A stretch of 64,000 nt of DNA. Source: an uncultured Solibacteraceae bacterium (lineage in GTDB: Bacteria; Acidobacteriota; Terriglobia; 20CM-2-55-15). Shown piece by piece: positions 31,089 through 63,202 of the stretch; the first letter of the stretch is position 1; each line of letters begins with the position of its first letter. Made by a program: the position numbers and the translations under genes. Below the pieces are notes generated by a model. That model was not told the DNA's origin, searched no databases, and saw nothing but the letters and a program-made list of their open reading frames with translations. Location: assembly GCA_964633285.1 (NCBI GenBank), contig CAZWGA010000001.1, positions 60,950 to 124,949 of the forward strand. The letters are read 5' to 3'.

Positions 31089-33783
<2,695 letters not shown>

Positions 33784-40483: not shown

Positions 40484-40522
40484 GTTTTCATTCCAGCTAA
40501 CTAAAAAGGAGATTTCGATATC

Positions 40523-41503: not shown

Positions 41504-41521
41504 GTCCCGTTTCCGCGATTA

Positions 41522-43119: not shown

Positions 43120-43125
43120 TTTTAC

Positions 43126-47667: not shown

Positions 47668-48283
47668 CAAAGGTGTGCCGCGGAAAAATCTCCGATTGGT
47701 TGCGGGCCTTCCTCTGCTCGCGTGGACGATCCGGGCCGCAAAAGAATCCCGGCTTGTCGATCGTTACGTTGTTTCGACCGAAGACGATGAAATCGCATCG
47801 GTTGCGAAAGCCCACGGGGCCGAGGTTGTGAAGCGTCCAGCAGAATTGGCGACGGATGATGCGACGACACTGAGCGTCCTTCAGCATGTTTTATCCGAAG
47901 TGCCGGCCGACACCGTCGTCGTTCTGCAGGCCACATCTCCGGTTCGCGATAAGGGCTTGATCGATTCCTGCATCGAAAGATTTCAGAAGACGCGCGCGGA
48001 TTCCCTCGCGACTGGCTGGCACTGTACGTATACCGAGTACGGAACGAATGACCTGCGCCGCCAGGACATTAAAGGCTTCTTCTACGATGACGGCAACGTC
48101 TATGTGATCCGGGCGGACCTGATCGCCAAAGGCGACGCGTACGGAAAGAAAATCGAACGCGTGATGATCGACAAAGAACAAAACATCGACATCGATGATG
48201 AATTCGATTTTTGGCTGGCCGAACAAGTCCTTGAAAAAAGGTTACGCGATAGTAAAACGGGCAGTAGGGAGAGGGTTTCGTGA
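47633..48283 (+). CDS. CMP-nonulosonic acid synthetase (acylneuraminate cytidylyltransferase family; NeuA/PseF-like)
   Basis: ..[19 protein letters not shown].. TTG 47633 with GGAG RBS preferred over ATG 47522, which would overlap the methyltransferase by 146 nt. Confidence 0.65.
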
Positions 48284-48849
48284 ACGCCAAGCCGCCATTA
48301 GCCGACAAAGCAAGCGTAACTCACGCCACTTTAAGAGACCGGTTCAGACTGTGGCAGGCTCGGCGACATCCGGGTGTCACTATTGGACAAGGCGTCATTA
48401 TCAAGCCGCACGTTGAATTGCGTTTGACCGACAACGCCAGGCTGATTGTGGGAGATCACGTCACGATTGATTCCTACGCCTATTTGCAACTGACCAAGCC
48501 TGAACCTACAGTCATTCTTGGCAACTACGTCGGAATTGGTCGGCATTCGGTGATCGCCGCGAAGCGAAGCATTGTCATCGGAGACTACACACAGATGGGT
48601 CCATATTGTCAGATCAACGATCAGGATCATGGCGCTTCCAGAGACGATCTGATCATGAATCAGAGAGCGATCATCGAGCCCGTTACCATTGGCCGCGATT
48701 GCTGGTTTGGTTCCGGCGTCCGGGTGCTCAAGGGTGTGACGATCGGCGACGGGGCAATTATCGGAGCAGGCTCGATTGTCACGAAAGATGTTCCCCCTTA
48801 TGAAATCTGGGGCGGCGTTCCAGCACGGCGCCTGAAAGTTCGCGAATAA
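48280..48849 (+). CDS. Hexapeptide-repeat (LbH) sugar N-/O-acetyltransferase (PseH/WbbJ-like)
   Basis: Repeated [LIV]GxxxxI hexapeptides. ..[28 protein letters not shown]... Confidence 0.75.
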
Positions 48850-48859
48850 AAGCTTTCCC

Positions 48860-50665: not shown

Positions 50666-52197
50666 GGAATGGCGTCATCCATCGGTTCCTCGCGAGTTTT
50701 GTTGCCAACTTCTGCCGGATGGGAATATCCGTTTTCACGGGACTCGTCGTCGCACGAGGTCTGGGAGTCGAGCGTTTCGGCGACCTGAATTTTCTTCTGG
50801 CGAGCTTTGCGGCGATCTCTCAATTGGTTGAAATGGGAAGTGCGTCGGCCTTTTATACGCTGATTTCCCGAAGACCGCGGGAGCGCACCTTCTTCGGCGT
50901 TTATGTCGTGTGGGTTTCAATACAGTTCGTGATCATTGCGGCTCTAGTGCTTTTTCTCCCTTCGCAACTGTTCGGCCGGGTGTGGTTCGATCATCAGAGA
51001 GGTATTGTTTTGATGGCCCTGGCTGCAACGTTCTTTTCAACACAGATATGGGCCTTGATCAGCCAGCTTAGTGAAGCGTTGCGAAAAACGGTGCTGATCC
51101 AGACGGTGTCTGTCGTTCAGGCCGCTGCACACCTGTTGCTTATTGCCGCCCTCATTTACCTCAAAGCGTTGTCGGTCTGGACCGTACTGTTGCTTCTTGT
51201 TCTGGAATACGCGGTTATCGCATTAATTCTGGGGCCACGGCTGATTCTCGGAAACATCAATCCGTCGGCGATTCGCCAGGACAGTACAGCGATTTTGAAA
51301 GAATTTGTTACTTATTGCACGCCATTGGTTGTTTATGCAGGCGCAGGTTTTCTCTACGCGTTTGCGGATCGCTGGTTTCTCCAGTTGTACGGTGGTTCAC
51401 AGCAGCAGGGATTCTTTTCGCTCTCTCAACAAATATCGAGTGTGAGTCTCATTGCCACCACTTCGATGTCCAGAGTCTTCTGGAAAGAAGTTGCGGAGGC
51501 GCGCCATTTGGAGAATCACTCGCGAGTGACGGCATTGTATGACAACGTTTTGAGGGGCCTTTACTTTGCATCCGCATGGTTGAGTTGCCTGCTTATTCCC
51601 TACAGCAGAGAACTCCTGCGTACGTTTTTGGGACCTTCGTTCGAGCCCGCCTGGCTGGCATTCAGCATCATGCTGATTTACCCGATTCATCAGTCGATTG
51701 GGCAAGTGACCGGTTCATTTCTTTGGGCCAGCGCGGATACCGGCATGTACGCCCGCGTTGGAATTGCAACAATGCTGGTTGGTGTACCCGTCACATACTT
51801 TCTGTTGGCGCCTCCGAACGCTCGCATTCCGGGATTCTCGCTCGGGGCGACCGGCCTTGCCCTGAAGCTGGTTGTGCTTCAGCTTCTGGCGGTCAATGTA
51901 CAAATGTTCTTTATCGCAAGAAAAGACCGGACGCAGTCGCACATTTCCTATCAGTTCTTTGTGCTCCTGCTCTTGCTCGGTCTGAGCGCTTTGTGCAAGG
52001 CCGGAGTGGATTTCCTCTTCAAGCTTGTTTGGCCCGGAGCGCCGACATTGGGAATCGCGGCTGCCGGCGGTCTCGCGTACATCGCCATTTCATTGTCGGG
52101 CATCGCGGTGGCCCCGGGTCTTCTGGGAATGAGCCGTGATCAGCTACGAATCGCGATCAGCCGGGTTGGGAGCGCCCTCATGCCGTCGCAGGCCTGA
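50662..52197 (+). CDS. wzx: Wzx-type oligosaccharide flippase (MOP superfamily)
   Basis: About 12-14 TM helices. Polysaccharide-biosynthesis-protein N-terminal pattern. Confidence 0.7.
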   Translation: MRNGVIHRFLASFVANFCRMGISVFTGLVVARGLGVERFGDLNFLLASFAAISQLVEMGSASAFYTLISRRPRERTFFGVYVVWVSIQFVIIAALVLFLPSQLFGRVWFDHQRGIVLMALAATFFSTQIWALISQLSEALRKTVLIQTVSVVQAAAHLLLIAALIYLKALSVWTVLLLLVLEYAVIALILGPRLILGNINPSAIRQDSTAILKEFVTYCTPLVVYAGAGFLYAFADRWFLQLYGGSQQQGFFSLSQQISSVSLIATTSMSRVFWKEVAEARHLENHSRVTALYDNVLRGLYFASAWLSCLLIPYSRELLRTFLGPSFEPAWLAFSIMLIYPIHQSIGQVTGSFLWASADTGMYARVGIATMLVGVPVTYFLLAPPNARIPGFSLGATGLALKLVVLQLLAVNVQMFFIARKDRTQSHISYQFFVLLLLLGLSALCKAGVDFLFKLVWPGAPTLGIAAAGGLAYIAISLSGIAVAPGLLGMSRDQLRIAISRVGSALMPSQA

Positions 52198-52202
52198 AAA
52201 AC

Positions 52203-53354
52203 ATGTCTCAACAGAAAACAACGTTCGACAAGGCCAACAGTTTTGTAGCGATTCGGCATCACGACTCGGAGGCCGCCGACTGCTACGAACGAATACGCCG
52301 GTTGCGCGAGAGGATTCCGGCGGACGCCTCCGATTACCGATCGAGCGTCATTCTTCGCGCTTGCCGTGAAGCGCTGGGCGAGGAAACCGGCAGCGCCGGG
52401 ACGGCCTTCACACTTCGCGAACATGTCATCGAAGAACTGAAGCGTCTCGATGAGGAACAACTGCCGCGATACCTTTTTTATCGCTATCGCTATGACGTCT
52501 ATCCGGTGACGAAACAATTGGACACTTTCCCGCCGTGTCTTCAGGTGGAGCCGACGTCGATCTGCAATTATCGATGCGTATTCTGTTATCAAACCGACAC
52601 GGAGTTCACCGACCGCAAGAATGGGTTCATGGGCTCGATGACGCTTGACATGTTCAAGAGCATCGTCGATCAGGCCCAGGGAAATTGCGAAGCCCTCACC
52701 CTGGCATCGCGCGGCGAGCCGCTGCTGTGCCGCGATATCAAGAAGATGCTGAGCTATGCCGCCGGGAAATTCCTCGCGCTCAAAATCAATACCAATGCTT
52801 GGTACCTCGATGAGGCCAATGCGCACGCCATTCTTCAGGCAGATCCGAATACGGTCGTCTTCTCGGCGGATGCTGCGGCCGAACCCCTTTACAGCCAGTT
52901 GCGGGTTCGAGGTAATTTGAAGCGCGTTCTAACGAACATCGAAGCGTTTCATAACCTTCGGGAACGGGAATATCCGAAAACGAAGTTGATTACACGAGTT
53001 TCGGGCGTGCGATACACGGAGTCGCAGAATATCGATGAAATGGAAGGCTTCTGGGCCGGCTTTGTCGATCAGGTTGCGTTTGTCGATTACAACCCCTGGG
53101 AGAATACCTATATCAGTCCTGTGAATGAGATCGCCAAACCGTGCTCGGATCTCTGGAGACGCACGTTTGTCTGGTTCGACGGCACGGTGAATCCCTGCGA
53201 TGTGGATTACAAGTCGACTTTGAAAGTCGGCAATGTAGCTACGGAATCTCTTCAGGATATGTGGACGGGCGGGAAATACTCTGAATTGAGAAACGCTCAC
53301 CTGGAGCAGCGGCGCCAAGCGTCGTCGCCATGCAATCGCTGTACGGTCATTTGA
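52203..53354 (+). CDS. Radical SAM enzyme with SPASM-like C-terminal Cys cluster (paralog of 45161..46297)
   Basis: ..EPTSICNYRCVFCYQTD.. and C-terminal ..CSDLW..NPCDVD..SSPCNRC... Confidence 0.75.
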   Translation: MSQQKTTFDKANSFVAIRHHDSEAADCYERIRRLRERIPADASDYRSSVILRACREALGEETGSAGTAFTLREHVIEELKRLDEEQLPRYLFYRYRYDVYPVTKQLDTFPPCLQVEPTSICNYRCVFCYQTDTEFTDRKNGFMGSMTLDMFKSIVDQAQGNCEALTLASRGEPLLCRDIKKMLSYAAGKFLALKINTNAWYLDEANAHAILQADPNTVVFSADAAAEPLYSQLRVRGNLKRVLTNIEAFHNLREREYPKTKLITRVSGVRYTESQNIDEMEGFWAGFVDQVAFVDYNPWENTYISPVNEIAKPCSDLWRRTFVWFDGTVNPCDVDYKSTLKVGNVATESLQDMWTGGKYSELRNAHLEQRRQASSPCNRCTVI

Positions 53355-53363
53355 TCTGAAGCC

Positions 53364-54122
53364 ATGATTTGCTCACTCCTGCTTGGACGTGAAGGAAGCG
53401 CCGGATTTCCGGGCAAGAATGTTCTGCCTGTCCTCGGTCGGCCGCTGATGACGTACCCGTTGCTTGCGGCACTGCACACGAAAAAAATCGACCGCGTCTA
53501 CGTTTCAACGGATTCGGCGCGCATCAAAGAGATTTCGCGCGCGCACAATGCAATCGTCATCGATCGTCCGGCGTATCTGGCAACGAAGGAAGCGTTGGGC
53601 GAAGACGCTTACGTTCACGGATATCAGGTCATTCGCGATGAATTGCGCAAGGAAGGCCAGACCGTCGAGTTGATGGTCCTGCTTTTTTGTAATGCTCCGA
53701 CGATCGATCCCGCGCTGCTGGGACAGGGTATCGACGCCCTCCGCTCGAATCCTGATGCGGATTCCGCCGTTACCGTTTCCGTTTACAACATGTGGAGTCC
53801 GCTCCGCGCGAGAAAACTCGACAATGCCGGTTACCTCCAGCCATTCGTTCCGTTCGAAGTGTTTGGAGATCCCAAGACACTGAACTGCGACCGCGATTCG
53901 CAGGGGGACGTATTCTTTGCCGATATGAGTACATCCATCGTGCGTCCGCATTGTTTGGAGAAGTTGAAAGCGGGTCTCCTGCCTCAGCGATGGATGGGAC
54001 AAAAGATACTGCCCATCAAACAGTGGGGCGGCCTGGACATCGACTATGAGTGGCAGCTTCCTCAAGCGGAATTCTGGCTGCGCGCTCACGGTTTCACCGA
54101 AACCTCAACGCCGTATGACTGA
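53364..54122 (+). CDS. Second cytidylyltransferase (CMP-sugar synthetase, CTP_transf_3 family)
   Basis: ..LLGREGSAGFPGKNVLPVLGRPLMTYPL... Confidence 0.65.
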   Translation: MICSLLLGREGSAGFPGKNVLPVLGRPLMTYPLLAALHTKKIDRVYVSTDSARIKEISRAHNAIVIDRPAYLATKEALGEDAYVHGYQVIRDELRKEGQTVELMVLLFCNAPTIDPALLGQGIDALRSNPDADSAVTVSVYNMWSPLRARKLDNAGYLQPFVPFEVFGDPKTLNCDRDSQGDVFFADMSTSIVRPHCLEKLKAGLLPQRWMGQKILPIKQWGGLDIDYEWQLPQAEFWLRAHGFTETSTPYD

Positions 54123-54867
54123 CAGGGTGCCGCACACGGACAAACGGGTCCTGATCACCGGCGGCAGTTCCGGCATCGGCGCAGCCACCGCGCGATTGCT
54201 GGCATGCGGCGGCGCCCACGTCGCCGTTCACTACAACCGGCGAAAGAAAGAAGCCGAGCAGATCTGCAATGAAATGGAGCGAAGCGGAAGGCGAGCGATC
54301 CCGCTGCAGGCGGATCTAACCGATCCCGCATCAGCCCGAATTCTCATCGATGAGGCGATTCGACAACTGGGCGGTCTCGACAGTCTCGTCAACAATGCGG
54401 GTGGTATGAAGGTACGGCCCGTGATGGAATTGACTCACATGGAATGGCACGACGCGTTTGCCTTGAACGTTGAAGCGCCCTTTTTCCTTTCCCAGCGGGC
54501 CATCGAACACATGCGTGCTAACGGCGGTGGAAGGATTGTGAACATCAGTTCGATCGGCGTGAAATATGGAGGCTCGCCGACAAGCCTTCACTATTCGGCG
54601 GCCAAGGCGGCGTTGGAAGCGATTACAGGGAGCCTGGCAAAGTTCGGCGCTCCTTTCGGTATTCTGGTGAATGCGATTCGACCCGGAATCATCGATACCG
54701 CGTTTCATAGTGAAACCTCAGCCGAGCAGATGGAAAAACGAGTTGCGATGATTCCGTTGAAACGCGCAGGCCAGCCTGAAGAGGTAGCCGAGATGATTAA
54801 ATACCTGCTCTCGCCTGCCGGTGACTTCATCACCGGCCAGATTTTTGCAGTGAGCGGAGGCGATTGA
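54115..54867 (+). CDS. SDR-family NAD(P)-dependent oxidoreductase
   Basis: ..KRVLITGGSSGIGAA.. ..NNAG.. ..YSAAKAA... ATG 54115 overlaps the upstream stop. Confidence 0.8.
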   Translation: MTDRVPHTDKRVLITGGSSGIGAATARLLACGGAHVAVHYNRRKKEAEQICNEMERSGRRAIPLQADLTDPASARILIDEAIRQLGGLDSLVNNAGGMKVRPVMELTHMEWHDAFALNVEAPFFLSQRAIEHMRANGGGRIVNISSIGVKYGGSPTSLHYSAAKAALEAITGSLAKFGAPFGILVNAIRPGIIDTAFHSETSAEQMEKRVAMIPLKRAGQPEEVAEMIKYLLSPAGDFITGQIFAVSGGD

Positions 54868-55850
54868 ACACCCGGACTTTCATTTCAACCGTTCCATTCG
54901 GCAATCCGTACCGGGAGCCGCTGGATCTCCTGGAAACTGCCGGGATTGAGTATCGAATCAATCCCCTGGGCCGGCGGCTGAAGGAACATGAACTCGCGGA
55001 GATGCTGGCCGGATGCGGAGTTCTCATTGCGGGTACGGAGCCCATCACGGAACGCGTTTTTGAAGCAGCCCCGGATTTGCAATTGGTTGCCAGAGTGGGA
55101 ATCGGACTCGACAATGTCGATTTGATTTCCGCGCGAAAGAAGGGCATTACGGTTTCGTACACTCCGGATGCTCCATCTCCAGCGGTAGCCGAACTCACCG
55201 TTGGATTGATGTTGAGTCTCGTGCGGTCGATCCCGCTTGCGGACCGCCACATCCGCCGCGCGGATTGGCAACGCCTCATGGGCAGGCGGCTCGACGGCCT
55301 CACCGTGGGCCTCATCGGACTCGGCCGCGTCGGAAAGCGTGTGGCGCGCATCCTCAGAGGGGGATTTCCCAATACGGTATTGCTCGGCAACGATCTCTGT
55401 CCCGATCAGGAATTCGGTCAATCGTGCGGTATCGAGTGGGTTTCAAAGGTGAAACTGTTTGAGGAATCGGACATAATTTCATTCCACGTGCCCCTTACAC
55501 ATGAAACGCACCGCATGATCACGGCTCGCGAAATCGAACACATGAAGCGCGAAGTGTTTCTGATCAACACGTCGCGCGGCAACGTGATCGATGAAATGGA
55601 TCTGTTGCGCGCGCTTCGTTCCGAGCGCATTGCCGGCGCGGCATTGGATGTATTCGACTGTGAGCCTTATTCGGGCGAACTGGCGGCCGTCGAGCGATGC
55701 ATTTTGACCGCCCACATGGGTTCGATGTCGCTGGATTGCCGGGCGCGCATGGAACTCGAGGCCACACAGGAAGTCGTTCGTTTTTTGACTGCAGGCAGCG
55801 TGCAATGCCCCGTGCCGGATTGCGAATATGCAATGCGCGCCGGTAACTAG
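54864..55850 (+). CDS. D-isomer-specific 2-hydroxyacid dehydrogenase family (NAD-binding)
   Basis: ..GLIGLGRVGKRVARIL.. ..NTSRGNVIDE.. ..AALDVF... Confidence 0.8.
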   Translation: MNTRTFISTVPFGNPYREPLDLLETAGIEYRINPLGRRLKEHELAEMLAGCGVLIAGTEPITERVFEAAPDLQLVARVGIGLDNVDLISARKKGITVSYTPDAPSPAVAELTVGLMLSLVRSIPLADRHIRRADWQRLMGRRLDGLTVGLIGLGRVGKRVARILRGGFPNTVLLGNDLCPDQEFGQSCGIEWVSKVKLFEESDIISFHVPLTHETHRMITAREIEHMKREVFLINTSRGNVIDEMDLLRALRSERIAGAALDVFDCEPYSGELAAVERCILTAHMGSMSLDCRARMELEATQEVVRFLTAGSVQCPVPDCEYAMRAGN

Positions 55851-55868
55851 AATTTAGCGGAGGTTTTG

Positions 55869-57530
55869 ATGATCGATGCGAATCGAGACACAACGTTCTT
55901 CGAAGTAACCACAAAAGCGGTTCTGCCGCCTTTGCCGAAGGACCCCACTCCGAAGAATTTCAAGGTGCTTCTGGTTTACCCGAATTACTCGATGGTGAAC
56001 CTGCTGCCCACCAACATCGGCATTCTTACCGCCTGTTTGAAGCAGAACGGTTTTACGGTGGATTTATTTGACACGACGTTTTATCGAACATCCGAGCGAA
56101 CGCTCGATGAGATTCGCGTCGAGAATCTCCAGGTCCGCAAGTTCAATCTTGAAGAAGCCGGCGTACGATTCAAGACGACCAACTACGTCGACGATTTCAA
56201 AAAGAAAGTCGCAGCCTTCAAGCCCGATCTCATCGGTGTGACGACCGTCGAAGACACGTGGCCGCAAGGAAAAAAACTTATCGAAGCCGTCCGCGATTAT
56301 CCCGCGCCGGTGATCGTCGGCGGAGTGTTTCCGTCGCTGGCTCCCGAGTGCGTCATTGAACATCCCGATGTCGACATGATCTGTGTCGGCGAAGGCGAGT
56401 ATGCCCTCATCGAAGTCGCAACACGCCTGATGAATAACGAAGACTGCTCGACGATCCAGAATCTCTGGGTCAAGAAAGACGGCGAGATCCGCAAGAATCC
56501 GATGCGGCCGCCCATCAGCATGGACGAAGTACCGTTCGGCGATTTCGATCTTTTCGAAGTCGAACGCTTTTATCGTCCGATGCAGGGAAAGGTCGTTCGA
56601 ATGGCTCCCATCGAAACCGATCGCGGCTGTCCCTACAAATGCCGGTTCTGTGAAGCTCCGTCGCTGGTGGGCCTGTATCGGGAACAAACGGGTCAATATT
56701 ATTTCCGGCGGAAGAGCTGGACGAAGGTCCGGGAGGAAATCGATTTGTACCGGCGGAAATACAATGCGGAGTACATCTATTTCAATGCCGAAACTTTCCT
56801 GGCGATGAGCGAGGAAGAGTTCAAGGAATTCATTCGTGTGTATGAGAATGTCCGCCTTCCTTTCTGGATGCAGACTCGTATCGAGACGATCACGGAATCC
56901 AGAGTGAAGGAATTGGAACGGGTGAATTGCAATCGCATTTCATTCGGCCTGGAACACGGCAATGAAGAATTCCGGAAGAAGATCGTCGGGAAAGGTTTTG
57001 CAAACAGTCAGATCGTTTCCGTGTTTCAGATCATGGACCAGTATTCGATTCCGATCACGATCAACAACATTCTTGGATTTCCGGGCGAGACTCGAGATCT
57101 TGTCTTCGACACGATCGAGCTGAACCGGCAGCTCGGCACCGACAGCGTCAATGCATACGTATTCACGCCGTATCGGGGGACCGCCATGTACAACGACGCG
57201 GTGACGAAAGGTTATGTTGATCCGGACGCCGAGACGAATTCCATTATCACGGGATCGATTCTCGACATGCCGACCATCAGCAAAGACGAAATTCTGGGTC
57301 TTGTTCGCACATTCAGCCTTTATGTGAAGTTTCCGAAGGAAGAATGGCCCGACATTCGCAAGGCCGAAAAATTTACTCCCGAAGGAAACCGCAAGTTCGA
57401 AGAACTCTCAGCGCGTTATTACGAGAGGTTCTTCGATCACGATTTTAAATGGACCAAAAAGGCGTGCATTTCGACGCGCGTCTATGATGGTCCGGTGCGC
57501 AAACAAGTTACCGAAGACATCACGAATTAA
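55869..57530 (+). CDS. Cobalamin(B12)-binding-domain radical SAM enzyme (class B; putative C-methyltransferase or rearrangement enzyme)
   Basis: N-terminal B12-binding fold (..LLVYPNYSMVNLLPTNIGILTACLKQNGF.. ..DLIGVTT..). ..ETDRGCPYKCRFCEAP.. CxxxCxxC. GGAGG RBS before ATG 55869. Confidence 0.8.
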   Translation: MIDANRDTTFFEVTTKAVLPPLPKDPTPKNFKVLLVYPNYSMVNLLPTNIGILTACLKQNGFTVDLFDTTFYRTSERTLDEIRVENLQVRKFNLEEAGVRFKTTNYVDDFKKKVAAFKPDLIGVTTVEDTWPQGKKLIEAVRDYPAPVIVGGVFPSLAPECVIEHPDVDMICVGEGEYALIEVATRLMNNEDCSTIQNLWVKKDGEIRKNPMRPPISMDEVPFGDFDLFEVERFYRPMQGKVVRMAPIETDRGCPYKCRFCEAPSLVGLYREQTGQYYFRRKSWTKVREEIDLYRRKYNAEYIYFNAETFLAMSEEEFKEFIRVYENVRLPFWMQTRIETITESRVKELERVNCNRISFGLEHGNEEFRKKIVGKGFANSQIVSVFQIMDQYSIPITINNILGFPGETRDLVFDTIELNRQLGTDSVNAYVFTPYRGTAMYNDAVTKGYVDPDAETNSIITGSILDMPTISKDEILGLVRTFSLYVKFPKEEWPDIRKAEKFTPEGNRKFEELSARYYERFFDHDFKWTKKACISTRVYDGPVRKQVTEDITN

Positions 57531-57539
57531 ATCCAGCGT

Positions 57540-58460
57540 ATGAAGGTAATCGTTTTTGGCGGAGCGGGCTTCCTGGGCAGCTTTGTCGCGGATGCTCTCA
57601 CGGAGCAAGGCCACGAAGTCATTATTTTCGACAAGCGGCCGTCGCCGTACCTGAAGGACGGCCAGACCGGTGTGATTGGTGATGTCCTGAACAAGCAGGA
57701 CGTTCTGAATGTGCTCGATGGGTGCGATGTTGTCTACAACTTTGCGGGTGTGGCGGACATTGCCACGGCATCTGAAAATCCCGCCGATACGCTGTACGTC
57801 AATGTCATGGGTAACACGGTGCTCCTGGAGAGCGCGCGTCAGAGAAATGTGAAGCGGTTTGTATTCGCGAGCACGCTTTATGTTTACAGTGAATCCGGTT
57901 CGTTCTACCGCGTCAGTAAGCAATCGTGCGAACTGGTCATTGAGGAATACTGGCGAGCGTTTAGTCTGCCCTATACGATTCTTCGCTACGGATCCTTATA
58001 CGGGCCGCGCGCCGACGATTCGAACTGGATACACCGCACTTTGAAGCAGGCTTTGATCGAAGGAAAGATTGTGAGATACGGCGACGGAGAAGAGATCCGC
58101 GAGTATATCCATGTTTCGGATGCGGCACGAAGCAGCGTCGAAGTTCTTGCCGATGAATACAAGAACTCCCACATCATCATCAGCGGCCAGCAATCGCTGA
58201 GGATTCGCGACATGCTCACCATGATCAGCGAGATGCTTGGGCACCGGGTCTCGGTGGAGTATCGTGTGCCCGAAAATGAGAATTGTTCGGGAGGCGGCAG
58301 TTTGCATTATCAAATTACGCCATATTCATTCCGCCCGAATATCGCCAGGAAACTCGTGCGCAGTTCTTATCTCGATCTGGGACAGGGCATGCTCAGCCTG
58401 ATTAACGAGATTTACCGCGAGAACGCCGATAAGATTCACTCGATGAGCGCCAACTCGTAA
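57540..58460 (+). CDS. NAD-dependent epimerase/dehydratase (SDR extended)
   Basis: [17 protein letters not shown].. YxxxK (YRVSK). Confidence 0.8.
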   Translation: MKVIVFGGAGFLGSFVADALTEQGHEVIIFDKRPSPYLKDGQTGVIGDVLNKQDVLNVLDGCDVVYNFAGVADIATASENPADTLYVNVMGNTVLLESARQRNVKRFVFASTLYVYSESGSFYRVSKQSCELVIEEYWRAFSLPYTILRYGSLYGPRADDSNWIHRTLKQALIEGKIVRYGDGEEIREYIHVSDAARSSVEVLADEYKNSHIIISGQQSLRIRDMLTMISEMLGHRVSVEYRVPENENCSGGGSLHYQITPYSFRPNIARKLVRSSYLDLGQGMLSLINEIYRENADKIHSMSANS

Positions 58461-58487
58461 CTCTGCCTGTCTTTCGTTTCAACAGCC

Positions 58488-59111
58488 TTGTTCCGATTTT
58501 TTTCACGAATCCGAAAAGAATTCTATTTGTGGATCGATGGAATCGCCGCACAACTGCCGGGCAATGCCGGAATTATCCTGCGGCGAATCTGGGTAGCGAA
58601 ACGCGTCGCGAAACTCGGCGCCGGAGCGACGATCGAAACCGGAACGTTTTTTCGATGCGGTAACAATATTTCGCTTGGCGAGTCCTTCACGTTGTTACGC
58701 GGATCGATTCTGGGCGCGTGTGATGGAAAATTGACGATCGGCGATCGCGTCTCCATCAATTCGGGCAGTGTTGTTGACGCATCGGCCGGGGGAAATATCA
58801 CCATTCACAACGATGCCTTGATTGGACCCAACGTTGTGATTCGCGCGAGCAATCATGCTTTCGATGCCGTGAACGTTCCCATGAATCGGCAAGGCCATAC
58901 CGGCGGCCGGATCATCATCGAAGAAGATGTGTGGATTGGCGCAAACGCCACTATTGTTCCCGGCGTGACCATTGGCGCGCACGCCGTTGTGGGCGCCGGT
59001 GCGGTTGTTACTCAAAATGTAGAACCGTGGACCATTGTAGGCGGTGTTCCCGCGAGGTTGATAAGAAACCGCCGGCCCGCCGCTTCCATCGTTGGTAATT
59101 CCGCTCTATGA
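58488..59111 (+). CDS. Hexapeptide-repeat acetyltransferase
   Basis: LbH repeats ..IGANATIVPGVTIGAHAVVGAGAVV... Confidence 0.7.
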   Translation: MFRFFSRIRKEFYLWIDGIAAQLPGNAGIILRRIWVAKRVAKLGAGATIETGTFFRCGNNISLGESFTLLRGSILGACDGKLTIGDRVSINSGSVVDASAGGNITIHNDALIGPNVVIRASNHAFDAVNVPMNRQGHTGGRIIIEEDVWIGANATIVPGVTIGAHAVVGAGAVVTQNVEPWTIVGGVPARLIRNRRPAASIVGNSAL

Positions 59112-61009
59112 GTTCCATCAGCATCGTTTCGCGTTCCCGGTGCGGCCGTCTCAATCCTGATTCAAAGGACACCGTGTGGATTTACGCGGGGACCGATTGC
59201 CTTTTCTATTGGAAAGTTTCGAATGGCGTGTTCAGGAACGTGAAGTGTGCGATCGAGCCGGGAGATTTCCAGACGTTCGTCACAAGGCAGCGCGCCGATT
59301 TTGTTCGCTGGTCCAACCGGCACGTATCGGCCTTCTCTGCACAGAACTGGCTTAGTGATCCCTTCGATAGAAATCCCGAGAACAATCTCTTTCTTTATTT
59401 CTGCTGGCTGGCATGGATTCAGGAATGGTTGGCGAATCATTCCAGCCGCCTCATTGTTGTCGTCGACGATTGCGCGATGGCGGCGGCTGTGGCCAGGCTT
59501 TCTCGAAGGAATCAAATCGATCTCGTAACCGATTACGGTGATCTTGTTTTCGATTGTGTGAAACGGCTGATGAGGGTCCTCGCTGTTTCGGGTTTTCGGC
59601 TCGTCGAATGGATTTACCGAAGTGTTCTTGCAAAAACAATACTGCGAGCGCCAACGCTATCTTCAAAGCCTGCGATTCTGATTACGACATATTTTCTGGG
59701 TAACGGTTGCATTGATTCCAACGGTGTCTTCAGGGATCGTTACCTGCCGGGGTTGCTGGAACTTTACGAACGCAATGGATTCGATGTCATCGTAGCGCCC
59801 ACGTTTTATGACATTCCGTTGAAGCATTTTCCACGAATCTACACCTTCATGGCACGTTCGAAAACGAAGTTTATCGTTGCCGAACAATTCGTTCCGGTCC
59901 GAGGCCAGATCGCCGCTCTGCTGTCGTGGTTGGCTCTGGTATGGCGAACGTTGATTCCCGGCGGTCCTTCGAGATTTATCCGGAATGAGGATCTGTACGG
60001 GACTGTTCGGGATCTGGCGCTCAGGAATACGCTCATCGCCTTTCCATTTCTCGTCAGTGGCCAGGTTCCCCGGTTCGCTGCAAAACGGGGCATGAAGCTG
60101 GAAGCGATGATTCAATGGTACGAGAATCAGCCGAAGGACAAGTATGTGCTGCTGAATTTTCGCCGGTGTTACCCAAACGCTATCAGCATCGCAGCGCAGA
60201 GTTACTGCATTTGCGGCAATTACCTCAGTTTGCCGATTACACGGGAAGAGCGAGCTGCCGGCATCGCGCCCGATCAGATTTGGATTCCCGGCGCTGCGAC
60301 GATGAAGATTCACGCCGCTTATGATGGAGAAGCGATTTCGAAGTATCGTCCGATGCCGGCACTGCGCTATCAACAGATATTTGAAACCGCGAGAAAGCGG
60401 CAGCATCAGAACAGCGGAGGAAAATTCACAATGACGATTTTGCTTCCGCATTCTGTGCCGGATTCGATTTACATGCTGTGGTGCGCCGCCGCCGCTATAA
60501 CTCACGTGCAGGAGCACGGCGGTGAAGTCCGAATCAAAACGCATCCTATTGTCACGATGCATGACATTCAACAAAGTGCGAATTCGAACGGAGTGAGGCT
60601 TGATGGGGCGATGAAGTGGGTGGATCTGCCGGTCGAGCAACTCCTCGTCGATACGGATTTGGTTCTGACCGGCGGGAGTTCCGCTGCGCTGGAAGCCGTT
60701 GCATGCGGTGTCCCGGCGCTGGTCGTCGGGTTCGTCGCCGGGTTGGATCTGAATCCTCTGGAAGCTGCGGACAAGAGGCTTTGGAGTCTCGTCTACGATC
60801 AGGAGCAAGCAGTCCGGGCAGTGCAGAGGTGGATGTCGGCAGATGCCATGCCGTCCAAAGAAAGGCTTGAGGTAGCGCGGGAGATTTTGAAAACTCACTT
60901 TGTCGAGTTACGCAACGAAGATGAAAAACTGTTTTGCCGCATGCTCGGGAATCATGCGATGACGGATGCCGGGAGTTCCAGTGTGAATCTGGTTCACGCG
61001 GCTAACTGA
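59108..61009 (+). CDS. Large hypothetical protein (633 aa), possible GT-B-like glycosyltransferase / capsule-polysaccharide synthesis protein
   Basis: C-terminal ..LVLTGGSSAALEAVACGVPALVV.. resembles a GT-B nucleotide-sugar-binding half. No confident family. Confidence 0.5.
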   Translation: MSSISIVSRSRCGRLNPDSKDTVWIYAGTDCLFYWKVSNGVFRNVKCAIEPGDFQTFVTRQRADFVRWSNRHVSAFSAQNWLSDPFDRNPENNLFLYFCWLAWIQEWLANHSSRLIVVVDDCAMAAAVARLSRRNQIDLVTDYGDLVFDCVKRLMRVLAVSGFRLVEWIYRSVLAKTILRAPTLSSKPAILITTYFLGNGCIDSNGVFRDRYLPGLLELYERNGFDVIVAPTFYDIPLKHFPRIYTFMARSKTKFIVAEQFVPVRGQIAALLSWLALVWRTLIPGGPSRFIRNEDLYGTVRDLALRNTLIAFPFLVSGQVPRFAAKRGMKLEAMIQWYENQPKDKYVLLNFRRCYPNAISIAAQSYCICGNYLSLPITREERAAGIAPDQIWIPGAATMKIHAAYDGEAISKYRPMPALRYQQIFETARKRQHQNSGGKFTMTILLPHSVPDSIYMLWCAAAAITHVQEHGGEVRIKTHPIVTMHDIQQSANSNGVRLDGAMKWVDLPVEQLLVDTDLVLTGGSSAALEAVACGVPALVVGFVAGLDLNPLEAADKRLWSLVYDQEQAVRAVQRWMSADAMPSKERLEVAREILKTHFVELRNEDEKLFCRMLGNHAMTDAGSSSVNLVHAAN

Positions 61010-61022
61010 GGAAAGATCGACA

Positions 61023-62429
61023 ATGGGTAAATGGGCTTCTCCTTTCAAGACAGTAGGCGGCATCGGCTCCGCCGGCGGTGGTGTGCCGCACATCCTGAAC
61101 GCGACTCAACGTGTGCACGCCGTCATCGCGGGTGCATTGTTCTACGCGGTCGGCAATTTCGGATTCTTGAACATTTTCGGAATTCGCCGCGAAGCGCAAG
61201 CGGTGTTGTTTGTGCTGTTGATCCTGCTGCTTCCGAGGTTGTCCGGTGTTGGCAGAGTCCGACGCGAGCCGTTGTTGTACCTGACTCTTGTTTTCTTTAT
61301 GGCGCGGCTATTTTTGCGGGACTGGACGATTATCGATATTTTCGATTCGCTGACATCCATAGGGATCATTATCGTGATTTTCGGAATCGACATGAGAAAG
61401 AGCGAGGCCATCTTAAGGATGGTCATCTTGTTCTCGGCCGTATTCTCCACGATGGTGATTGTTCAGGCGGTCATTATCTGGTTCAATCCTTCGTTGATTG
61501 CGTTTGTCAACTACCGTCCGTACTCCTCGATGTCTTCCGACGATCTCATTCAACTCCAGCACCCCATTGAGTATCTGGGATTTACGACAGGAGACTACAT
61601 ACGTGTGCTCGGGCGAGACTTCGTCCGTTTCAATAGCTTTGCTTCCGAACCCTCGGTTCTCATTTATTCATTCCTTGTGCCTGGCATACTTGCTCTGACT
61701 TTCAAAAACCATCTCGTCCGGCTCCTGAGTATTCCGATTCTGTTCTTTGCCGTCGTTCTCGCTGCAGCCGGCACGGCCTGGTTGTCCCTCGCGGTAGGGA
61801 TGGCGGTGTTTCCGTTCTTCTATCTCTTCAAAAACAGACCCCGCTTTCTTCATTTCCTTCCGTACATTGCTATTGCGCTGTTTCTCTTTTTTGTGATTAA
61901 CGTGGACAGCCGGCAATTCATGGCCGACTTTGATACATTTTTCCAGTCCTTTTCGGAGATTCACTCGGACCCGTCGGAAAAATATAGTTCGGGGATCATA
62001 CGTATTGGCTCGATCAGGGATACTCTGGATCTCGTCCTCGAGTATCCGCTCGGAGTCCCATTCAGCATCGGGCGAATCGGCGGCTTGCTCCTGACAGCCG
62101 GATTTGACGGCGGTTTTCTGGGAGTCATTGTCTGTCTCATCCTGTCCTACAGAATGTTTCGTGTATTGACGGCAGCGGTTCTCGGGAGTTCCGGAATCAC
62201 TCGAATCGCCATGTCGCTCGTGTACGGAATCATGATTCAGGTACTCTGCTTTTCCGACTATGGCTGGACAACTTTCAGCGGAATCATGATGCTGGCTCTG
62301 CTTTTGACGCGAGCCGAATACCTCGTCGCGCGGAATGAGTGGGAAATGTCTCGCGGGCCTGTCTTCCGTCCAGTGCCTGTGCCGGTTGCAGTCTCTGCCG
62401 ATCCGGCTTATTTGATCGAGCAACGATGA
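61023..62429 (+). CDS. Polytopic membrane protein, Wzy/O-antigen-ligase-like candidate polymerase
   Basis: More than 10 TM helices and a large loop. Lower GC than its neighbours. Placed with the flippase and sugar genes. Confidence 0.5.
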   Translation: MGKWASPFKTVGGIGSAGGGVPHILNATQRVHAVIAGALFYAVGNFGFLNIFGIRREAQAVLFVLLILLLPRLSGVGRVRREPLLYLTLVFFMARLFLRDWTIIDIFDSLTSIGIIIVIFGIDMRKSEAILRMVILFSAVFSTMVIVQAVIIWFNPSLIAFVNYRPYSSMSSDDLIQLQHPIEYLGFTTGDYIRVLGRDFVRFNSFASEPSVLIYSFLVPGILALTFKNHLVRLLSIPILFFAVVLAAAGTAWLSLAVGMAVFPFFYLFKNRPRFLHFLPYIAIALFLFFVINVDSRQFMADFDTFFQSFSEIHSDPSEKYSSGIIRIGSIRDTLDLVLEYPLGVPFSIGRIGGLLLTAGFDGGFLGVIVCLILSYRMFRVLTAAVLGSSGITRIAMSLVYGIMIQVLCFSDYGWTTFSGIMMLALLLTRAEYLVARNEWEMSRGPVFRPVPVPVAVSADPAYLIEQR

Positions 62430-63202
62430 AAGTCGTCATCCTGTGCGGCGGAATGGGCACGCGGCTTCGCGAAGAGACCGAATTGCGGCCGAAGCCGATG
62501 CTCGAAATCGGCGGCATGCCGATCCTCTGGCACATCATGAAAACGTACAGCCGGCATGGCTTCAGAGAGTTTGTGCTGTGTCTCGGTTACAAAGGCGAGG
62601 TGATCAAGGATTTTTTTTATCACTATGAAATGCTCGCCAACGATTTCACAATCGAGCTGGGACCCCGCAACATCGAAATCATTCCTCGTCACACGGAATC
62701 CGGTTGGAAAATCACTTTGGCAGATACGGGCCCGAACTCCATGACGGGCGCGCGCGTGAAGCGGATCGAAAAATACATTAACGATGAAACGTTTCTCCTG
62801 ACGTACGGGGACGGCGTCACGGATCTCGATGTCTCGCGAGTGCTCGACTTTCACCGTGAACATGGAAAGATCGGCACCGTCACCGGCGTTCGGCCCCCAT
62901 CACGATACGGAGAGCTCTCTATTCACGGGGATGAGGTCACAGCGTTCGATGAAAAGCCCGTGAACCCTCATGACAACGTGATCAGTGGAGGTTACTTCAT
63001 CTTCAATCGCAACATTTTCGGGTATCTGAGTGACGATGACGATTGTGTTCTTGAAAAAGAGCCGCTCGAACGGCTGGCTGCCGATAACGAACTGAAGGTC
63101 TACCACCACGATGGTTTTTGGCAGTGCATGGATACTTACCGCGATTACCGCTACCTGAACGAGCTCTGGGACAAGAACAAAGCTCCCTGGAAAACTTGGT
63201 AA
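62426..63202 (+). CDS. rfbF: Glucose-1-phosphate cytidylyltransferase
   Basis: [38 protein letters not shown].. ATG 62426 overlaps the upstream stop (ATGA). Confidence 0.85.

What the first reader, a model, noticed from the sequence alone, without database searches (positions are those of the whole stretch)
55869..57530. B12-binding radical SAM enzyme inside the glycan locus
The N-terminal cobalamin-binding fold plus a radical SAM core is the signature of class B radical SAM methyltransferases, such as those that C-methylate sugars in antibiotic pathways. Placed between a 2-hydroxyacid dehydrogenase and an epimerase, it predicts a C-methylated or rearranged sugar.
Basis: partly seen in the sequence, partly recalled or inferred. 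Interest (0 to 1): 0.5.

Follow-up and report, generated by a model that had tools for sequence, protein, structure and literature searches.

The report
B12-type radical SAM enzyme, sugar-acid operon
The gene is a real cobalamin-type radical SAM enzyme from an uncharacterised but highly conserved family that travels with genes for CMP-activated sialic-acid-like sugars, so it probably adds a carbon to (or otherwise remodels) such a sugar; that reaction has not been shown.

Summary
ORF 55869-57530 (+) encodes 553 aa with a B12-binding domain (PF02310) and a radical SAM core (PF04055), both above Pfam cut-offs. The CX3CX2C motif (C254/C258/C261) is invariant. An AlphaFold model matches only class-B radical SAM structures at full length.

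The protein reaches no curated family cut-off (best is HpnJ, 104 of 578 bits). It belongs to an unnamed orthologous group, 64-82% identical across Acidobacteriota, Nitrospirota and Chloroflexota MAGs.

It sits in a conserved operonic cassette:
- radical SAM/SPASM protein
- NeuA-like CMP-transferase
- FabG-like SDR
- PGDH-like dehydrogenase
- the B12 enzyme
- GalE-like SDR
- often a HAD phosphatase and a ~600-aa TIGR04326-like protein

Here and in several other loci the cassette adjoins or is embedded in NeuB/NeuC/NeuD-type nonulosonic-acid genes.

Most likely role: radical C-methylation of a CMP-activatable ulosonic acid or its precursor. This is inferred, not shown. Sequence cannot exclude a non-methylating reaction or a cobalamin-free AprD4-like reaction.

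I rate it a new member of a known kind, of moderate interest. I found no paper linking radical SAM enzymes to nonulosonic acids.

The parts
55869..57530 (+). Class-B (B12-binding) radical SAM enzyme, 553 aa; this is the finding
   Evidence: PF02310 and PF04055 both score above cut-off. The AlphaFold model has pLDDT 83.5. Its full-length Foldseek matches are TsrM, MgmA, AprD4, CysS, OxsB and TokK. Orthologues are 64-82% identical.
55962..56438 (+). N-terminal Rossmann-type cobalamin-binding domain (about residues 32-190)
   Evidence: PF02310 matches residues 103-183. The GG (151-152) and GEGE (174-177) motifs are invariant. They align to the B12 domains of MgmA, TokK, OxsB, CysS and TsrM. The model shows beta/alpha repeats over residues 32-188.
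56628..56651 (+). CX3CX2C motif (C254, C258, C261) for the radical SAM [4Fe-4S] cluster
   Evidence: The sequence reads RGCPYKCRFC. All three cysteines are invariant in 29 orthologues.
56622..57119 (+). Radical SAM core (Pfam residues 252-417)
   Evidence: PF04055 scores 67.9 bits. With the family profile, the best PDB match in this region is AprD4, E 4e-16.
52203..53354 (+). Radical SAM/SPASM protein, first gene of the conserved cassette
   Evidence: PF04055 and PF13186. Orthologues of at least 50% identity lie near the B12 enzyme in 10 of 31 other loci. The C-terminal domain resembles BtrN.
53364..54122 (+). NeuA/PseF-like cytidylyltransferase (second one in the locus)
   Evidence: PF02348. 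Sub-threshold match to PseF, 65.9 bits. Best PDB hits are NeuA CMP-sialate synthetases. Orthologues of 57-78% identity occur in 11 loci, and a CTP_transf_3 gene of any type in 19 of 31.
54046..54867 (+). FabG-like short-chain dehydrogenase/reductase (true start probably near 54142)
   Evidence: adh_short_C2 scores 187.9 bits. PDB and NCBIfam hits are generic ketoreductases. Its end overlaps the next gene by 4 nt.
54864..55850 (+). D-2-hydroxyacid dehydrogenase, phosphoglycerate-dehydrogenase-like
   Evidence: PF02826 and PF00389. Best PDB hit is phosphoglycerate dehydrogenase 1wwk, E 9e-57. A homologue occurs in 19 of 31 loci. It is fused to a CTP_transf_3 domain in L009.
57540..58460 (+). GalE-like extended SDR (epimerase/reductase), the most frequent direct neighbour
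   Evidence: PF01370. GxxGxxG and YxxxK motifs are present. Orthologues of at least 50% identity occur in 14 of 31 loci, usually immediately downstream.
58488..59111 (+). Hexapeptide-repeat acyltransferase
   Evidence: PF00132. Sub-threshold matches to WbbJ-type O-acetyltransferases. It is not a conserved partner: found in 1 of 31 loci.
59108..61009 (+). TIGR04326-like ~630-aa surface-carbohydrate protein (putative transferase)
   Evidence: Sub-threshold match to TIGR04326, 47.7 bits. Similar ~600-aa genes lie near the B12 enzyme in 18 of 31 loci.
39503..50665 (+). Upstream nonulosonic-acid-type gene set of the same locus
   Evidence: It holds a DegT aminotransferase, a dehydratase, WbqC, NeuB, PseG-like and PseC-like genes, a radical SAM/SPASM protein, PIG-L, a methyltransferase, a PseF-like gene and a hexapeptide acyltransferase. 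The LIC12162-family transferase scores 457.6 bits against a cut-off of 225.
50662..52197 (+). Wzx-type flippase between the two gene sets
   Evidence: PF01943.
61023..62429 (+). Wzy/O-antigen-ligase-family membrane protein
   Evidence: Sub-threshold PF04932 Wzy_C match: 31.1 bits against a cut-off of 31.7, E 2.4e-07.
62339..63202 (+). Glucose-1-phosphate cytidylyltransferase (RfbF)
   Evidence: TIGR02623 scores 354 bits against a cut-off of 300. It is followed by a CDP-glucose 4,6-dehydratase-like ORF that runs to the window end. Orthologues lie near the B12 enzyme in 5 other loci.

Best explanation
The gene encodes a class-B radical SAM enzyme. It has an N-terminal Rossmann domain that most likely holds cobalamin base-off. 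It has a TIM-barrel core whose CX3CX2C cysteines hold the [4Fe-4S] cluster that cleaves SAM to a 5'-deoxyadenosyl radical. A helical C-terminal domain follows.

It is one step of a conserved operonic cassette, here 52203-61009:
- radical SAM/SPASM protein
- NeuA-like CMP-transferase
- FabG-like SDR
- PGDH-like 2-hydroxyacid dehydrogenase
- the B12 enzyme
- GalE-like SDR
- acyltransferase
- TIGR04326-like putative transferase

The cassette tailors a sialic-acid-like (ulosonic) sugar, activates it with CMP and hands it to a dedicated transferase.

The most likely chemistry is as follows. The 5'-deoxyadenosyl radical abstracts a hydrogen from an unactivated sp3 carbon of the sugar, its precursor or its side chain. 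Methylcobalamin then delivers a methyl group, giving a C-methylated or chain-extended sugar acid.

Shown here: architecture, motifs, fold, family conservation, gene linkage.
Inferred: cobalamin use (about 0.75), methyl transfer (about 0.5), ulosonic-acid-type substrate (about 0.45).
For: **Domains and motifs.** Both Pfam domains score above cut-off. CX3CX2C, GG and GEGE are invariant in 29 orthologues with 72% mean column identity.

**Fold.** The model has pLDDT 83.5. Every full-length PDB match is a class-B-type enzyme: TsrM 1.7e-23, MgmA 2.1e-20, AprD4, CysS, OxsB, TokK. The N-terminal domain aligns by sequence to proven cobalamin binders (MgmA, TokK, OxsB, CysS, TsrM). It does not align to AprD4, which matches only the core. 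The same holds for the NCBIfam AprD4 model, which aligns residues 227-455 only.

**Operon.** Gaps and overlaps between the cassette genes run from -4 to 27 nt. There is no enrichment of promoter- or terminator-like sites.

**Linkage in 31 other orthologue loci.** Partners at 50% identity or more: GalE-like SDR 14, 2HADH 13, CMP-transferase 11, SPASM protein 10. Partners of any type: CTP_transf_3 19, TIGR04326-like 18, HAD phosphatase 16. The gene order is colinear in Vicinamibacterales, Terriglobia and a Logan contig.

**Ulosonic-acid context.**
- NeuB, PseG-like, PseC-like and PseF-like genes lie 8-13 kb upstream here.
- NeuB with a SAF domain lies next to the cassette in L002.
- In L096 the orthologue and a paralogue sit among NeuC (431 bits, cut-off 236), NeuB (450, cut-off 400), NeuD (215, cut-off 161) and a KdsB-subfamily CMP-transferase (283, cut-off 255).
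- A 27%-identical homologue of the same architecture follows an acylneuraminate cytidylyltransferase gene on an Azospirillum thermophilum plasmid. NeuB-family, HAD and LegB genes are nearby.

**Precedents for the neighbours.** ElaABC and EpaA/EpaB combine a CTP-transferase with two oxidoreductases, or a fusion of them, to tailor CMP-nonulosonic acids (PMC13656337; PMC12053666). A CTP_transf_3-2HADH fusion occurs in L009.

**Methylation as the default.** All class-B groups with a characterised member include C-methyltransferases (PMC12931638). Tandem paralogues occur in at least 6 loci. From my own knowledge, tandem paralogues are typical of multi-methylation pathways.
Against: **No curated family is reached.** The nearest model is HpnJ, a presumed non-methylating enzyme, at 104 of 577.6 bits.

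**AprD4 similarity.** With the family profile the strongest PDB sequence match is AprD4, a cobalamin-free sugar diol dehydratase.

**Sequence cannot separate reaction types.** The review states that methylating and non-methylating members cannot be told apart by structural features. Mapping of the residue below the corrin is ambiguous: TokK W76 aligns with D129 and OxsB N186 with V127, inside the invariant VEDTW stretch.

**NeuB linkage is loose.** NeuB lies within 10 kb in only 3 of 31 tblastn-screened orthologue loci, plus L096 by Pfam annotation. Three Pfam-annotated loci (L010, L095, L097) show the CMP-transferase-2HADH pair with a GT2/Zn-ADH fusion and no NeuB in reach.

**A CDP-glucose pathway is also nearby.** It borders the cassette here and in 5 other loci, so a CDP-hexose substrate is possible.

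**No cofactor evidence.** Nothing in the window bears on cobalamin supply.
Confidence: 0.45

Rival explanations
1. Same enzyme class and same cassette, but a non-methylating reaction. A cobalamin-assisted radical rearrangement, ring contraction or cyclisation of the sugar (as proposed for HpnJ and shown for OxsB, and BchE-type chemistry) would give a rearranged rather than a methylated sugar acid.
For: HpnJ is the top NCBIfam match, aligned over nearly its whole length (residues 120-491 against model positions 70-438 of 472, E 7e-30). The ladderane enzyme and BchE come next. OxsB is among the full-length fold matches. The review says non-methylating members cannot be distinguished structurally. 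The invariant polar E128-D129-T130 lies where OxsB and TsrM have polar lower-axial residues.
Against: All these scores are far below the family cut-offs (104 of 577.6). Characterised class-B enzymes are mostly methylases. Tandem paralogues and accompanying FkbM O-methyltransferases fit a decoration pathway better.
Confidence: 0.2
2. The enzyme is an AprD4-like, cobalamin-independent radical SAM dehydratase. The N-terminal Rossmann domain would be structural only. The enzyme would dehydrate a vicinal diol of the sugar to a keto-deoxy intermediate. The NAD(P)-dependent SDR encoded directly downstream (57540-58460) would then reduce it, giving an extra deoxy position.
For: AprD4 is the best PDB hit of the family profile (E 4e-16) and the second-best hit of the single sequence. 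It is also a full-length fold match (7e-19). AprD4 acts on a sugar (PDB title) and does not bind cobalamin. The B12 enzyme and the GalE-like SDR form the tightest gene pair in the family. From my own knowledge, this recalls the AprD4/AprD3 dehydratase-reductase pair.
Against: The sequence similarity to AprD4 covers only the radical SAM core. The N-terminal domain passes the PF02310 cut-off and aligns with proven cobalamin binders. The AprD4 model scores 53.5 of 500 bits.
Confidence: 0.15
3. The enzyme is a class-B methylase or remodeller whose substrate is not an ulosonic acid. The substrate could be a CDP-linked 6-deoxyhexose made by the adjacent RfbF/CDP-glucose dehydratase genes. It could also be an N-acyl side chain or a small hydroxy acid derived from 3-phosphoglycerate.
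For: RfbF scores above cut-off and a CDP-glucose 4,6-dehydratase-like gene follows at 62339-64000. RfbF orthologues lie near the enzyme in 5 other loci. The PGDH-like dehydrogenase plus a HAD_2-type phosphatase in 16 of 31 loci suggests a phosphoglycerate-derived unit. NeuB is usually not within 10 kb. From my own knowledge, Fom3 shows that a class-B methylase can act on a CMP-linked small molecule.
Against: The most constant partner is a NeuA/KdsB-family CMP-transferase, found in 19 of 31 loci. From my own knowledge, the known substrates of that family are ulosonic acids. L096 embeds the enzyme among NeuC, NeuB and NeuD. RfbF is present in only a minority of loci.
Confidence: 0.2

Closest known systems
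MgmA/QCMT, the methyl-coenzyme M reductase glutamine C-methyltransferase (PDB 9CCB)
   Same: It is the best single-sequence PDB hit (E 3e-15, residues 149-453). It has the same order of B12 domain then radical SAM core. The VGG...GEGE stretch and the CX3CX2C motif align.
   Different: Identity in the structural alignment is about 18%. Its substrate is a protein side chain. It has 450 aa, without the conserved C-terminal helical extension. The MgmA NCBIfam model scores 66.6 of 360 bits.
TsrM, TokK, CysS and OxsB (solved class-B radical SAM enzymes)
   Same: They are full-length fold matches, Foldseek E 1e-23 to 1e-15 and TM about 0.55-0.60. Their B12 domains align by sequence.
   Different: Identity is 15-20%. 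Their substrates are tryptophan, carbapenem or thioester intermediates and a nucleotide. TsrM is non-radical and OxsB contracts a ring (PMC12931638).
GenK/GenD1 (gentamicin sugar C-methylases) and Fom3 (methylates cytidylyl-2-hydroxyethylphosphonate)
   Same: They are functional analogues. The review lists them as class-B Csp3 methylases. From my own knowledge, GenK and GenD1 act on sugars, and Fom3 acts on a CMP-linked substrate made by a cytidylyltransferase in the same pathway.
   Different: They were not compared by sequence here, because no model or sequence was available in the tools. Those pathways make antibiotics, not cell-surface glycans.
AprD4, radical SAM 1,2-diol dehydratase (PDB 6FD2)
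   Same: It is the best PDB match of the family profile (E 4e-16) over the radical SAM core and C-terminal part. It acts on a sugar. It has a Rossmann-like N-terminal domain.
   Different: It binds no cobalamin. Its N-terminal domain does not align by sequence with this protein. The AprD4 model scores 53.5 of 500 bits.
HpnJ (TIGR03471), hopanoid-associated B12 radical SAM protein
   Same: It is the top NCBIfam hit, aligned over almost the full model. It is listed among enzymes with 'other or unknown transformations'.
   Different: It scores 104 bits against a cut-off of 577.6. There are no hopanoid genes here.
ElaABC and EpaA/EpaB modules for C8-epimerisation of CMP-legionaminic or pseudaminic acid
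   Same: They have the same composition as the genes around the B12 enzyme: a CTP_transf_3 cytidylyltransferase plus two NAD(P) oxidoreductases in a mobile module. EpaA is a cytidylyltransferase-reductase fusion, like the CTP_transf_3-2HADH fusion in L009.
   Different: Those modules contain no radical SAM enzyme. Their reductases are an aldo-keto reductase and SDRs, not a 2-hydroxyacid dehydrogenase. The SDR here looks like generic FabG and no Ela entry appeared among its listed best 60 PDB hits.

Membership tests
Radical SAM superfamily | CX3CX2C motif that binds the [4Fe-4S] cluster | tested here: met
   C254-x3-C258-x2-C261 is invariant in 29 orthologues.
Radical SAM superfamily | PF04055 profile match above the gathering score, with a partial TIM-barrel fold | tested here: met
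   67.9 bits against a cut-off of 29.5. The model matches radical SAM structures.
Radical SAM superfamily | Reductive cleavage of SAM to the 5'-deoxyadenosyl radical | not testable with these tools
   This needs an anaerobic enzyme assay.
Class-B (cobalamin-dependent) radical SAM enzymes | Rossmann-type B12-binding domain fused N-terminally to the radical SAM core | tested here: met
   PF02310 scores 50.4 bits against a cut-off of 32.1. The domain aligns with the B12 domains of MgmA, TokK, OxsB, CysS and TsrM. Full-length fold matches agree.
Class-B (cobalamin-dependent) radical SAM enzymes | Actual binding of cobalamin (base-off) | not testable with these tools
   AprD4 and ArsL show that a related Rossmann domain does not guarantee binding.
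Class-B radical SAM C-methyltransferases | [quoted passage not shown] | tested here: inconclusive
   HMM alignments place TokK W76 opposite D129 and OxsB N186 opposite V127, within the invariant V127-E128-D129-T130-W131 stretch. The register is uncertain by about 2 residues.
Class-B radical SAM C-methyltransferases | Methyl transfer from SAM via methylcobalamin to a substrate radical | not testable with these tools
   Inferred only from the prevalence of methylases in the class.
HpnJ (TIGR03471) | Score at or above the curated cut-off | tested here: not met
   104.3 bits against 577.6.
BchE, PhpK, MgmA, BzaD, HpnR, KedN5 and TIGR04013/TIGR04295 B12 radical SAM families | Score at or above the curated cut-off | tested here: not met
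   All score 37-97 bits against cut-offs of 251-700.
AprD4 family diol dehydratases (NF033070) | Score at or above the curated cut-off over the full length | tested here: not met
   53.5 bits against 500. Only residues 227-455 align.
Nonulosonic-acid tailoring module (ElaABC/EpaAB type) | CTP_transf_3 cytidylyltransferase adjacent to two NAD(P) oxidoreductases, next to nonulosonic-acid synthesis genes | tested here: met
   Genes at 53364-55850. NeuB, PseG-like, PseC-like and PseF-like genes lie upstream. L002 and L096 show the same.
Nonulosonic-acid tailoring module (ElaABC/EpaAB type) | Sequence orthology of the oxidoreductases to ElaA/ElaC or EpaA/EpaB | tested here: inconclusive
   The best PDB hits of the SDR are generic FabG-type reductases. 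The other enzyme is a PGDH-like 2HADH, not an aldo-keto reductase.

The most novel reading that the evidence does not exclude
The B12 radical SAM enzyme, perhaps with its SPASM partner, alters the carbon skeleton of a nonulosonic acid. For example, it could methylate the C9 methyl of a 9-deoxy (legionaminic- or pseudaminic-type) sugar. That would give the ten-carbon, CMP-activated 'higher-carbon ulosonic acids' detected by mass spectrometry in Magnetospirillum gryphiswaldense, whose structure and biosynthesis are unassigned (PMC8157484; bioRxiv 10.64898/2026.04.20.719630). The cassette would then be the missing genetic basis, and such sugars would be widespread in Acidobacteriota, Nitrospirota and Chloroflexota.
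Probability: 0.12. Interest if true: 0.75.

Novelty: new member of a known kind. Interest (0 to 1): 0.45.

Why it matters
Class-B radical SAM enzymes are a very large class that is mostly uncharacterised. A 2026 review counts more than 100 sequence groups and notes that the largest remain structurally unexplored.

This orthologous group is unusually conserved, 64-82% identical across phyla. It has a clear and repeatable genetic context, which makes it a tractable target.

If it modifies a CMP-activated sialic-acid-like sugar, it would be the first radical SAM step described in nonulosonic-acid biosynthesis. I found no paper in the searchable library that mentions both topics. It could also explain unassigned methylated or chain-extended ulosonic acids seen in environmental bacteria.

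In practical terms, the cassette (52203-61009) is a compact unit for heterologous expression together with a nonulosonic-acid pathway.

Tried and rejected
**Curated family.** I looked for a curated family for the protein. None of the 46 NCBIfam hits reaches its cut-off.

**Literature.** Searches for radical SAM or B12 enzymes in nonulosonic-acid, O-antigen or capsule pathways found nothing relevant.

**Reaction type from the lower-axial residue.** The alignment register is too uncertain to use.

**TIGR04326-like protein.** A homologue search found only the protein itself. No alignment could be built and no structure was attempted.

**AlphaFold-database fold search.** The afdb50 library was not available.

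**Cobalamin supply.** There is no riboswitch and no tRNA in the window. No cob or btu genes appear among the annotated ORFs. A 64-kb window cannot settle this.

**Plasmid hits.** The matches in Solidesulfovibrio and Clostridium are generic distant class-B enzymes, one in a RiPP context and one in a transposon-rich context. I set them aside.

**Direct link to phosphoglycerate or serine metabolism.** I considered this because of the PGDH-like gene plus the HAD phosphatase. I could not develop it beyond co-occurrence.

Full report
**Observation.** The ORF listed at 55866..57530 (+) begins in practice at the ATG at 55869, 5 nt after a GGAGG. Its 553-aa product is identical to a database protein, P0001. 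Pfam finds a Radical_SAM core at residues 252-417 (67.9 bits, cut-off 29.5). It finds a B12-binding domain at residues 103-183 (50.4 bits, cut-off 32.1). The upstream gene (54864-55850) is a D-2-hydroxyacid dehydrogenase and the downstream gene (57540-58460) is an Epimerase-family SDR.

**Anatomy of the protein.** I aligned 29 orthologues of 64-82% identity, with 72% mean column identity. C254, C258 and C261 (CX3CX2C) are invariant. So are G151-G152 and G174-E-G-E177 in the Rossmann domain, and a V127-E-D-T130 stretch followed by a mostly conserved W131. An AlphaFold2 model built on this alignment has mean pLDDT 83.5 and pTM 0.85. It shows a beta/alpha domain (residues 32-190), a TIM-barrel-like core (about 240-445) and a helical C-terminal domain (472-516). 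The last roughly 27 residues are disordered.

**Fold and sequence matches to solved structures.**
- Foldseek against the PDB returns only class-B-type radical SAM enzymes at full length. These are TsrM (1.7e-23), MgmA (2.1e-20), AprD4 (7e-19), CysS, OxsB and TokK. Methylthiotransferases and other radical SAM enzymes follow at lower coverage.
- By sequence, the N-terminal domain aligns with the B12 domains of MgmA, TokK, OxsB, CysS and TsrM. AprD4 aligns only over the core.
- 9CCB is MgmA/QCMT, a B12-dependent glutamine C-methylase.

**Family placement.** No NCBIfam model is reached. HpnJ scores 104 of 577.6 bits, the ladderane enzyme 97 of 360, BchE 90 of 481, PhpK 81.5 of 600, MgmA 66.6 of 360 and AprD4 53.5 of 500.

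The word-indexed search gave 2,959 relatives at E <= 1e-10. The best 120 are all 64-100% identical to the query and carry both Pfam domains. Sources name them only generically, for example 'B12-binding domain-containing radical SAM protein', and sometimes wrongly, for example 'BchE' or 'YgiQ'. Named sources are MAGs of Chloroflexota, Nitrospirota, Vicinamibacterales, Terriglobia and Dehalococcoidia.

An exhaustive HMMER scan of 50%-identity representatives gives 1,937 clusters at E <= 1e-30. More than 150 of them align over nearly the full length at 30-48% identity. The protein therefore belongs to a tight orthologous group inside a large uncharacterised clade. The window itself is probably acidobacterial, because its citrate synthase is 85% identical to a Terriglobia MAG protein.

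**The locus.** From 39.5 kb to the window end, every gene is on the + strand.
- Upstream set: DegT-type aminotransferase, 4,6-dehydratase-like SDR, WbqC, NeuB, PseG-like, PseC-like, radical SAM/SPASM, PIG-L deacetylase, methyltransferase, PseF-like CMP-transferase, hexapeptide acyltransferase, and a LIC12162-family transferase (457.6 bits, cut-off 225).
- Then Wzx.
- Then the cassette that holds the finding: radical SAM/SPASM (52203), NeuA-like cytidylyltransferase (53364), FabG-like SDR, PGDH-like 2HADH, the B12 enzyme, GalE-like SDR, hexapeptide acyltransferase and a TIGR04326-like 633-aa protein.
- Then Wzy, glucose-1-P cytidylyltransferase (354 bits, cut-off 300) and a CDP-glucose 4,6-dehydratase-like gene.

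Gaps and overlaps within the cassette run from -4 to 27 nt. Promoter- and terminator-like sites are not enriched. This fits one long operon.

**Is the cassette conserved?** I fetched 7 genome loci and 80 metagenome loci, plus loci around individual homologues. In 31 other non-redundant loci that carry an orthologue of at least 64% identity, many of them truncated, tblastn finds the partners below.

| Partner | Loci with an orthologue (>= 50% identity) | Loci with any homologue |
|---|---|---|
| GalE-like SDR | 14 | 19 |
| 2HADH | 13 | 19 |
| NeuA-like transferase / CTP_transf_3 | 11 | 19 |
| Radical SAM/SPASM protein | 10 | 12 |
| FabG-like SDR | 7 | 11 |
| RfbF | 5 | 9 |
| TIGR04326-like ~600-aa protein | 3 | 18 |
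| HAD_2-type phosphatase (absent from the window) | 1 | 16 |
| FkbM O-methyltransferase | 1 | 11 |

Further points:
- De novo clustering of ORFs gave the same ranking.
- The gene order is colinear with the window in a Vicinamibacterales MAG, a Terriglobia MAG and a Logan contig.
- The B12 enzyme is the most conserved gene of the set.
- A second paralogue of 42-48% identity lies beside it in at least 6 loci, and L053 has three B12 radical SAM genes.
- The 2HADH is fused to a CTP_transf_3 domain in L009 and apparently in L005. It is adjacent to one in L010, L035, L039, L040 and L095. This Rosetta-stone link suggests that the two act on the same metabolite.

**What the context says about the substrate.** From my own knowledge, the CTP_transf_3 family activates 2-keto-3-deoxy sugar acids (Kdo, sialic, legionaminic and pseudaminic acids). 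The best PDB hits of the cassette's transferase are NeuA enzymes.

Evidence for a nonulosonic-acid link:
- Nonulosonic-acid genes lie upstream in the window.
- A full NeuB with a SAF domain sits about 2.4 kb upstream of the cassette in L002.
- In L096 the orthologue and a paralogue are embedded among NeuC, NeuB, NeuD, a Maf-like gene, a CBS-nucleotidyltransferase and a KdsB-subfamily CMP-transferase. The NeuC, NeuB, NeuD and KdsB-subfamily assignments are above the curated cut-offs.
- A 27%-identical homologue of the same architecture follows an acylneuraminate cytidylyltransferase gene on an Azospirillum thermophilum plasmid, near NeuB-family, HAD and LegB genes.
- Published modules for tailoring CMP-nonulosonic acids have the same make-up as the genes around the B12 enzyme. 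ElaABC is a CTP-transferase plus two NAD(P) enzymes (PMC13656337). EpaA/EpaB is a CTP_transf_3-reductase fusion plus an SDR (PMC12053666).

Evidence against a strict link:
- NeuB is within 10 kb in only 3 of 31 tblastn-screened orthologue loci, plus L096 by Pfam annotation.
- Three Pfam-annotated loci (L010, L095, L097) pair the transferase and 2HADH with a GT2/Zn-ADH fusion instead.
- A CDP-glucose pathway is nearby in a minority of loci.

I therefore put an ulosonic-acid-type substrate at about 0.45 and list other substrates as a rival.

**Mechanism.** The architecture supports reductive SAM cleavage at the [4Fe-4S] cluster and hydrogen abstraction from the substrate. In most characterised class-B enzymes, methylcobalamin then transfers a methyl group to the substrate radical. 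That is my best estimate, at about 0.5.

It is not demonstrated, for three reasons:
- The review states that non-methylating members cannot be recognised structurally, and that AprD4 and ArsL lack cobalamin.
- The family profile's best PDB match is the AprD4 core. The tight pairing with an NAD(P)-dependent SDR recalls, from my own knowledge, the AprD4/AprD3 dehydratase-reductase pair.
- The lower-axial-residue test is ambiguous. Radical methylases have a hydrophobic residue there, while TsrM and OxsB have polar ones. TokK W76 aligns with D129 and OxsB N186 with V127, inside VEDTW.

**Comparison with what is known, and novelty.** The protein is a member of the radical SAM superfamily. By domain criteria it is also a member of the class-B subgroup. 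It is not a member of any named class-B family. It works most like the sugar-acting methylases GenK and GenD1. From my own knowledge, it also resembles Fom3 in having a cytidylylated substrate.

I found no paper in the searchable library that mentions radical SAM enzymes together with nonulosonic, legionaminic or pseudaminic acids. I rate it a new member of a known kind.

The most novel reading not excluded is that the cassette makes skeleton-modified ulosonic acids. CMP-linked alpha-keto sugar acids with a ten-carbon backbone marker have been reported in Magnetospirillum gryphiswaldense, along with a series of species that differ by CH2. No structure or genes have been assigned. I could not test whether that organism carries the family, so I give this reading about 0.12.

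**Verdict.** Interest is 0.45. The annotation itself is ordinary. However, the family's conservation, its two-radical-SAM cassette and its link to CMP-activated sugar acids give a concrete, testable lead.

Noticed in passing
window 45161-46297 and 52203-53354: Two radical SAM/SPASM proteins sit in one sialic-acid-like sugar locus. They are only about 26% identical to each other's orthologues. Their best NCBIfam hits are metalloenzyme-maturase and 'spiro-SPASM' models, all far below cut-off. The C-terminal domain of the second resembles the sugar dehydrogenase BtrN. Their role in sugar biosynthesis is unknown.
   Followed up: partly
L009 8211-9965; L005 about 12905-14842: A CTP_transf_3 cytidylyltransferase domain is fused to the PGDH-like 2-hydroxyacid dehydrogenase. 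This is a Rosetta-stone link that parallels the published EpaA cytidylyltransferase-reductase fusion.
   Followed up: partly
L023, L028, L019, L021, L047 and others (about 220-aa ORF after the epimerase gene): A HAD_2-type phosphatase accompanies the cassette in 16 of 31 loci but is absent from the window. There a hexapeptide acyltransferase (58488-59111) occupies that position.
   Followed up: partly
window 48860-50665 and 59108-61009: Two large putative transferases are present: a LIC12162-family protein (above cut-off) and a TIGR04326-like protein. Each closes one sugar gene set. The second had no detectable homologue other than itself in the word-indexed protein search.
   Followed up: partly
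window 62339-64000: Glucose-1-phosphate cytidylyltransferase (above cut-off) is followed by a CDP-glucose 4,6-dehydratase-like gene that is cut by the window end. A CDP-6-deoxyhexose pathway therefore begins right after Wzy.
   Followed up: partly
window 39503-40483: This DegT-type aminotransferase ORF of 326 aa matches only positions 5-251 of the 360-position Pfam model. It may be truncated or divergent. A second, full-length PseC-like gene lies at 44103-45161.
   Followed up: no
window 35241-37349 (-) and 37574-39214 (-): Two large ORFs (702 and 546 aa) with no Pfam match lie just upstream of the glycan operon on the opposite strand.
   Followed up: no
window 31085-33783: A CpsB/CapC-type phosphatase gene lies on the + strand. 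On the - strand are a GDP-mannose 4,6-dehydratase and a second epimerase/reductase (a GDP-6-deoxyhexose route). Glycan genes therefore start well before 39.5 kb.
   Followed up: no
L053 (5902-15187) and L096 (5543-11668): Up to three B12 radical SAM paralogues occur in one sugar locus. This suggests several successive radical steps on one substrate.
   Followed up: partly
L010 13499-15436, L095 15314-17209, L096 17834-19729, L097 12689-14641: A recurrent ~630-650-aa fusion of a family-2 glycosyltransferase with a zinc alcohol dehydrogenase lies next to the cytidylyltransferase-2HADH pair in Chloroflexota-type loci.
   Followed up: no
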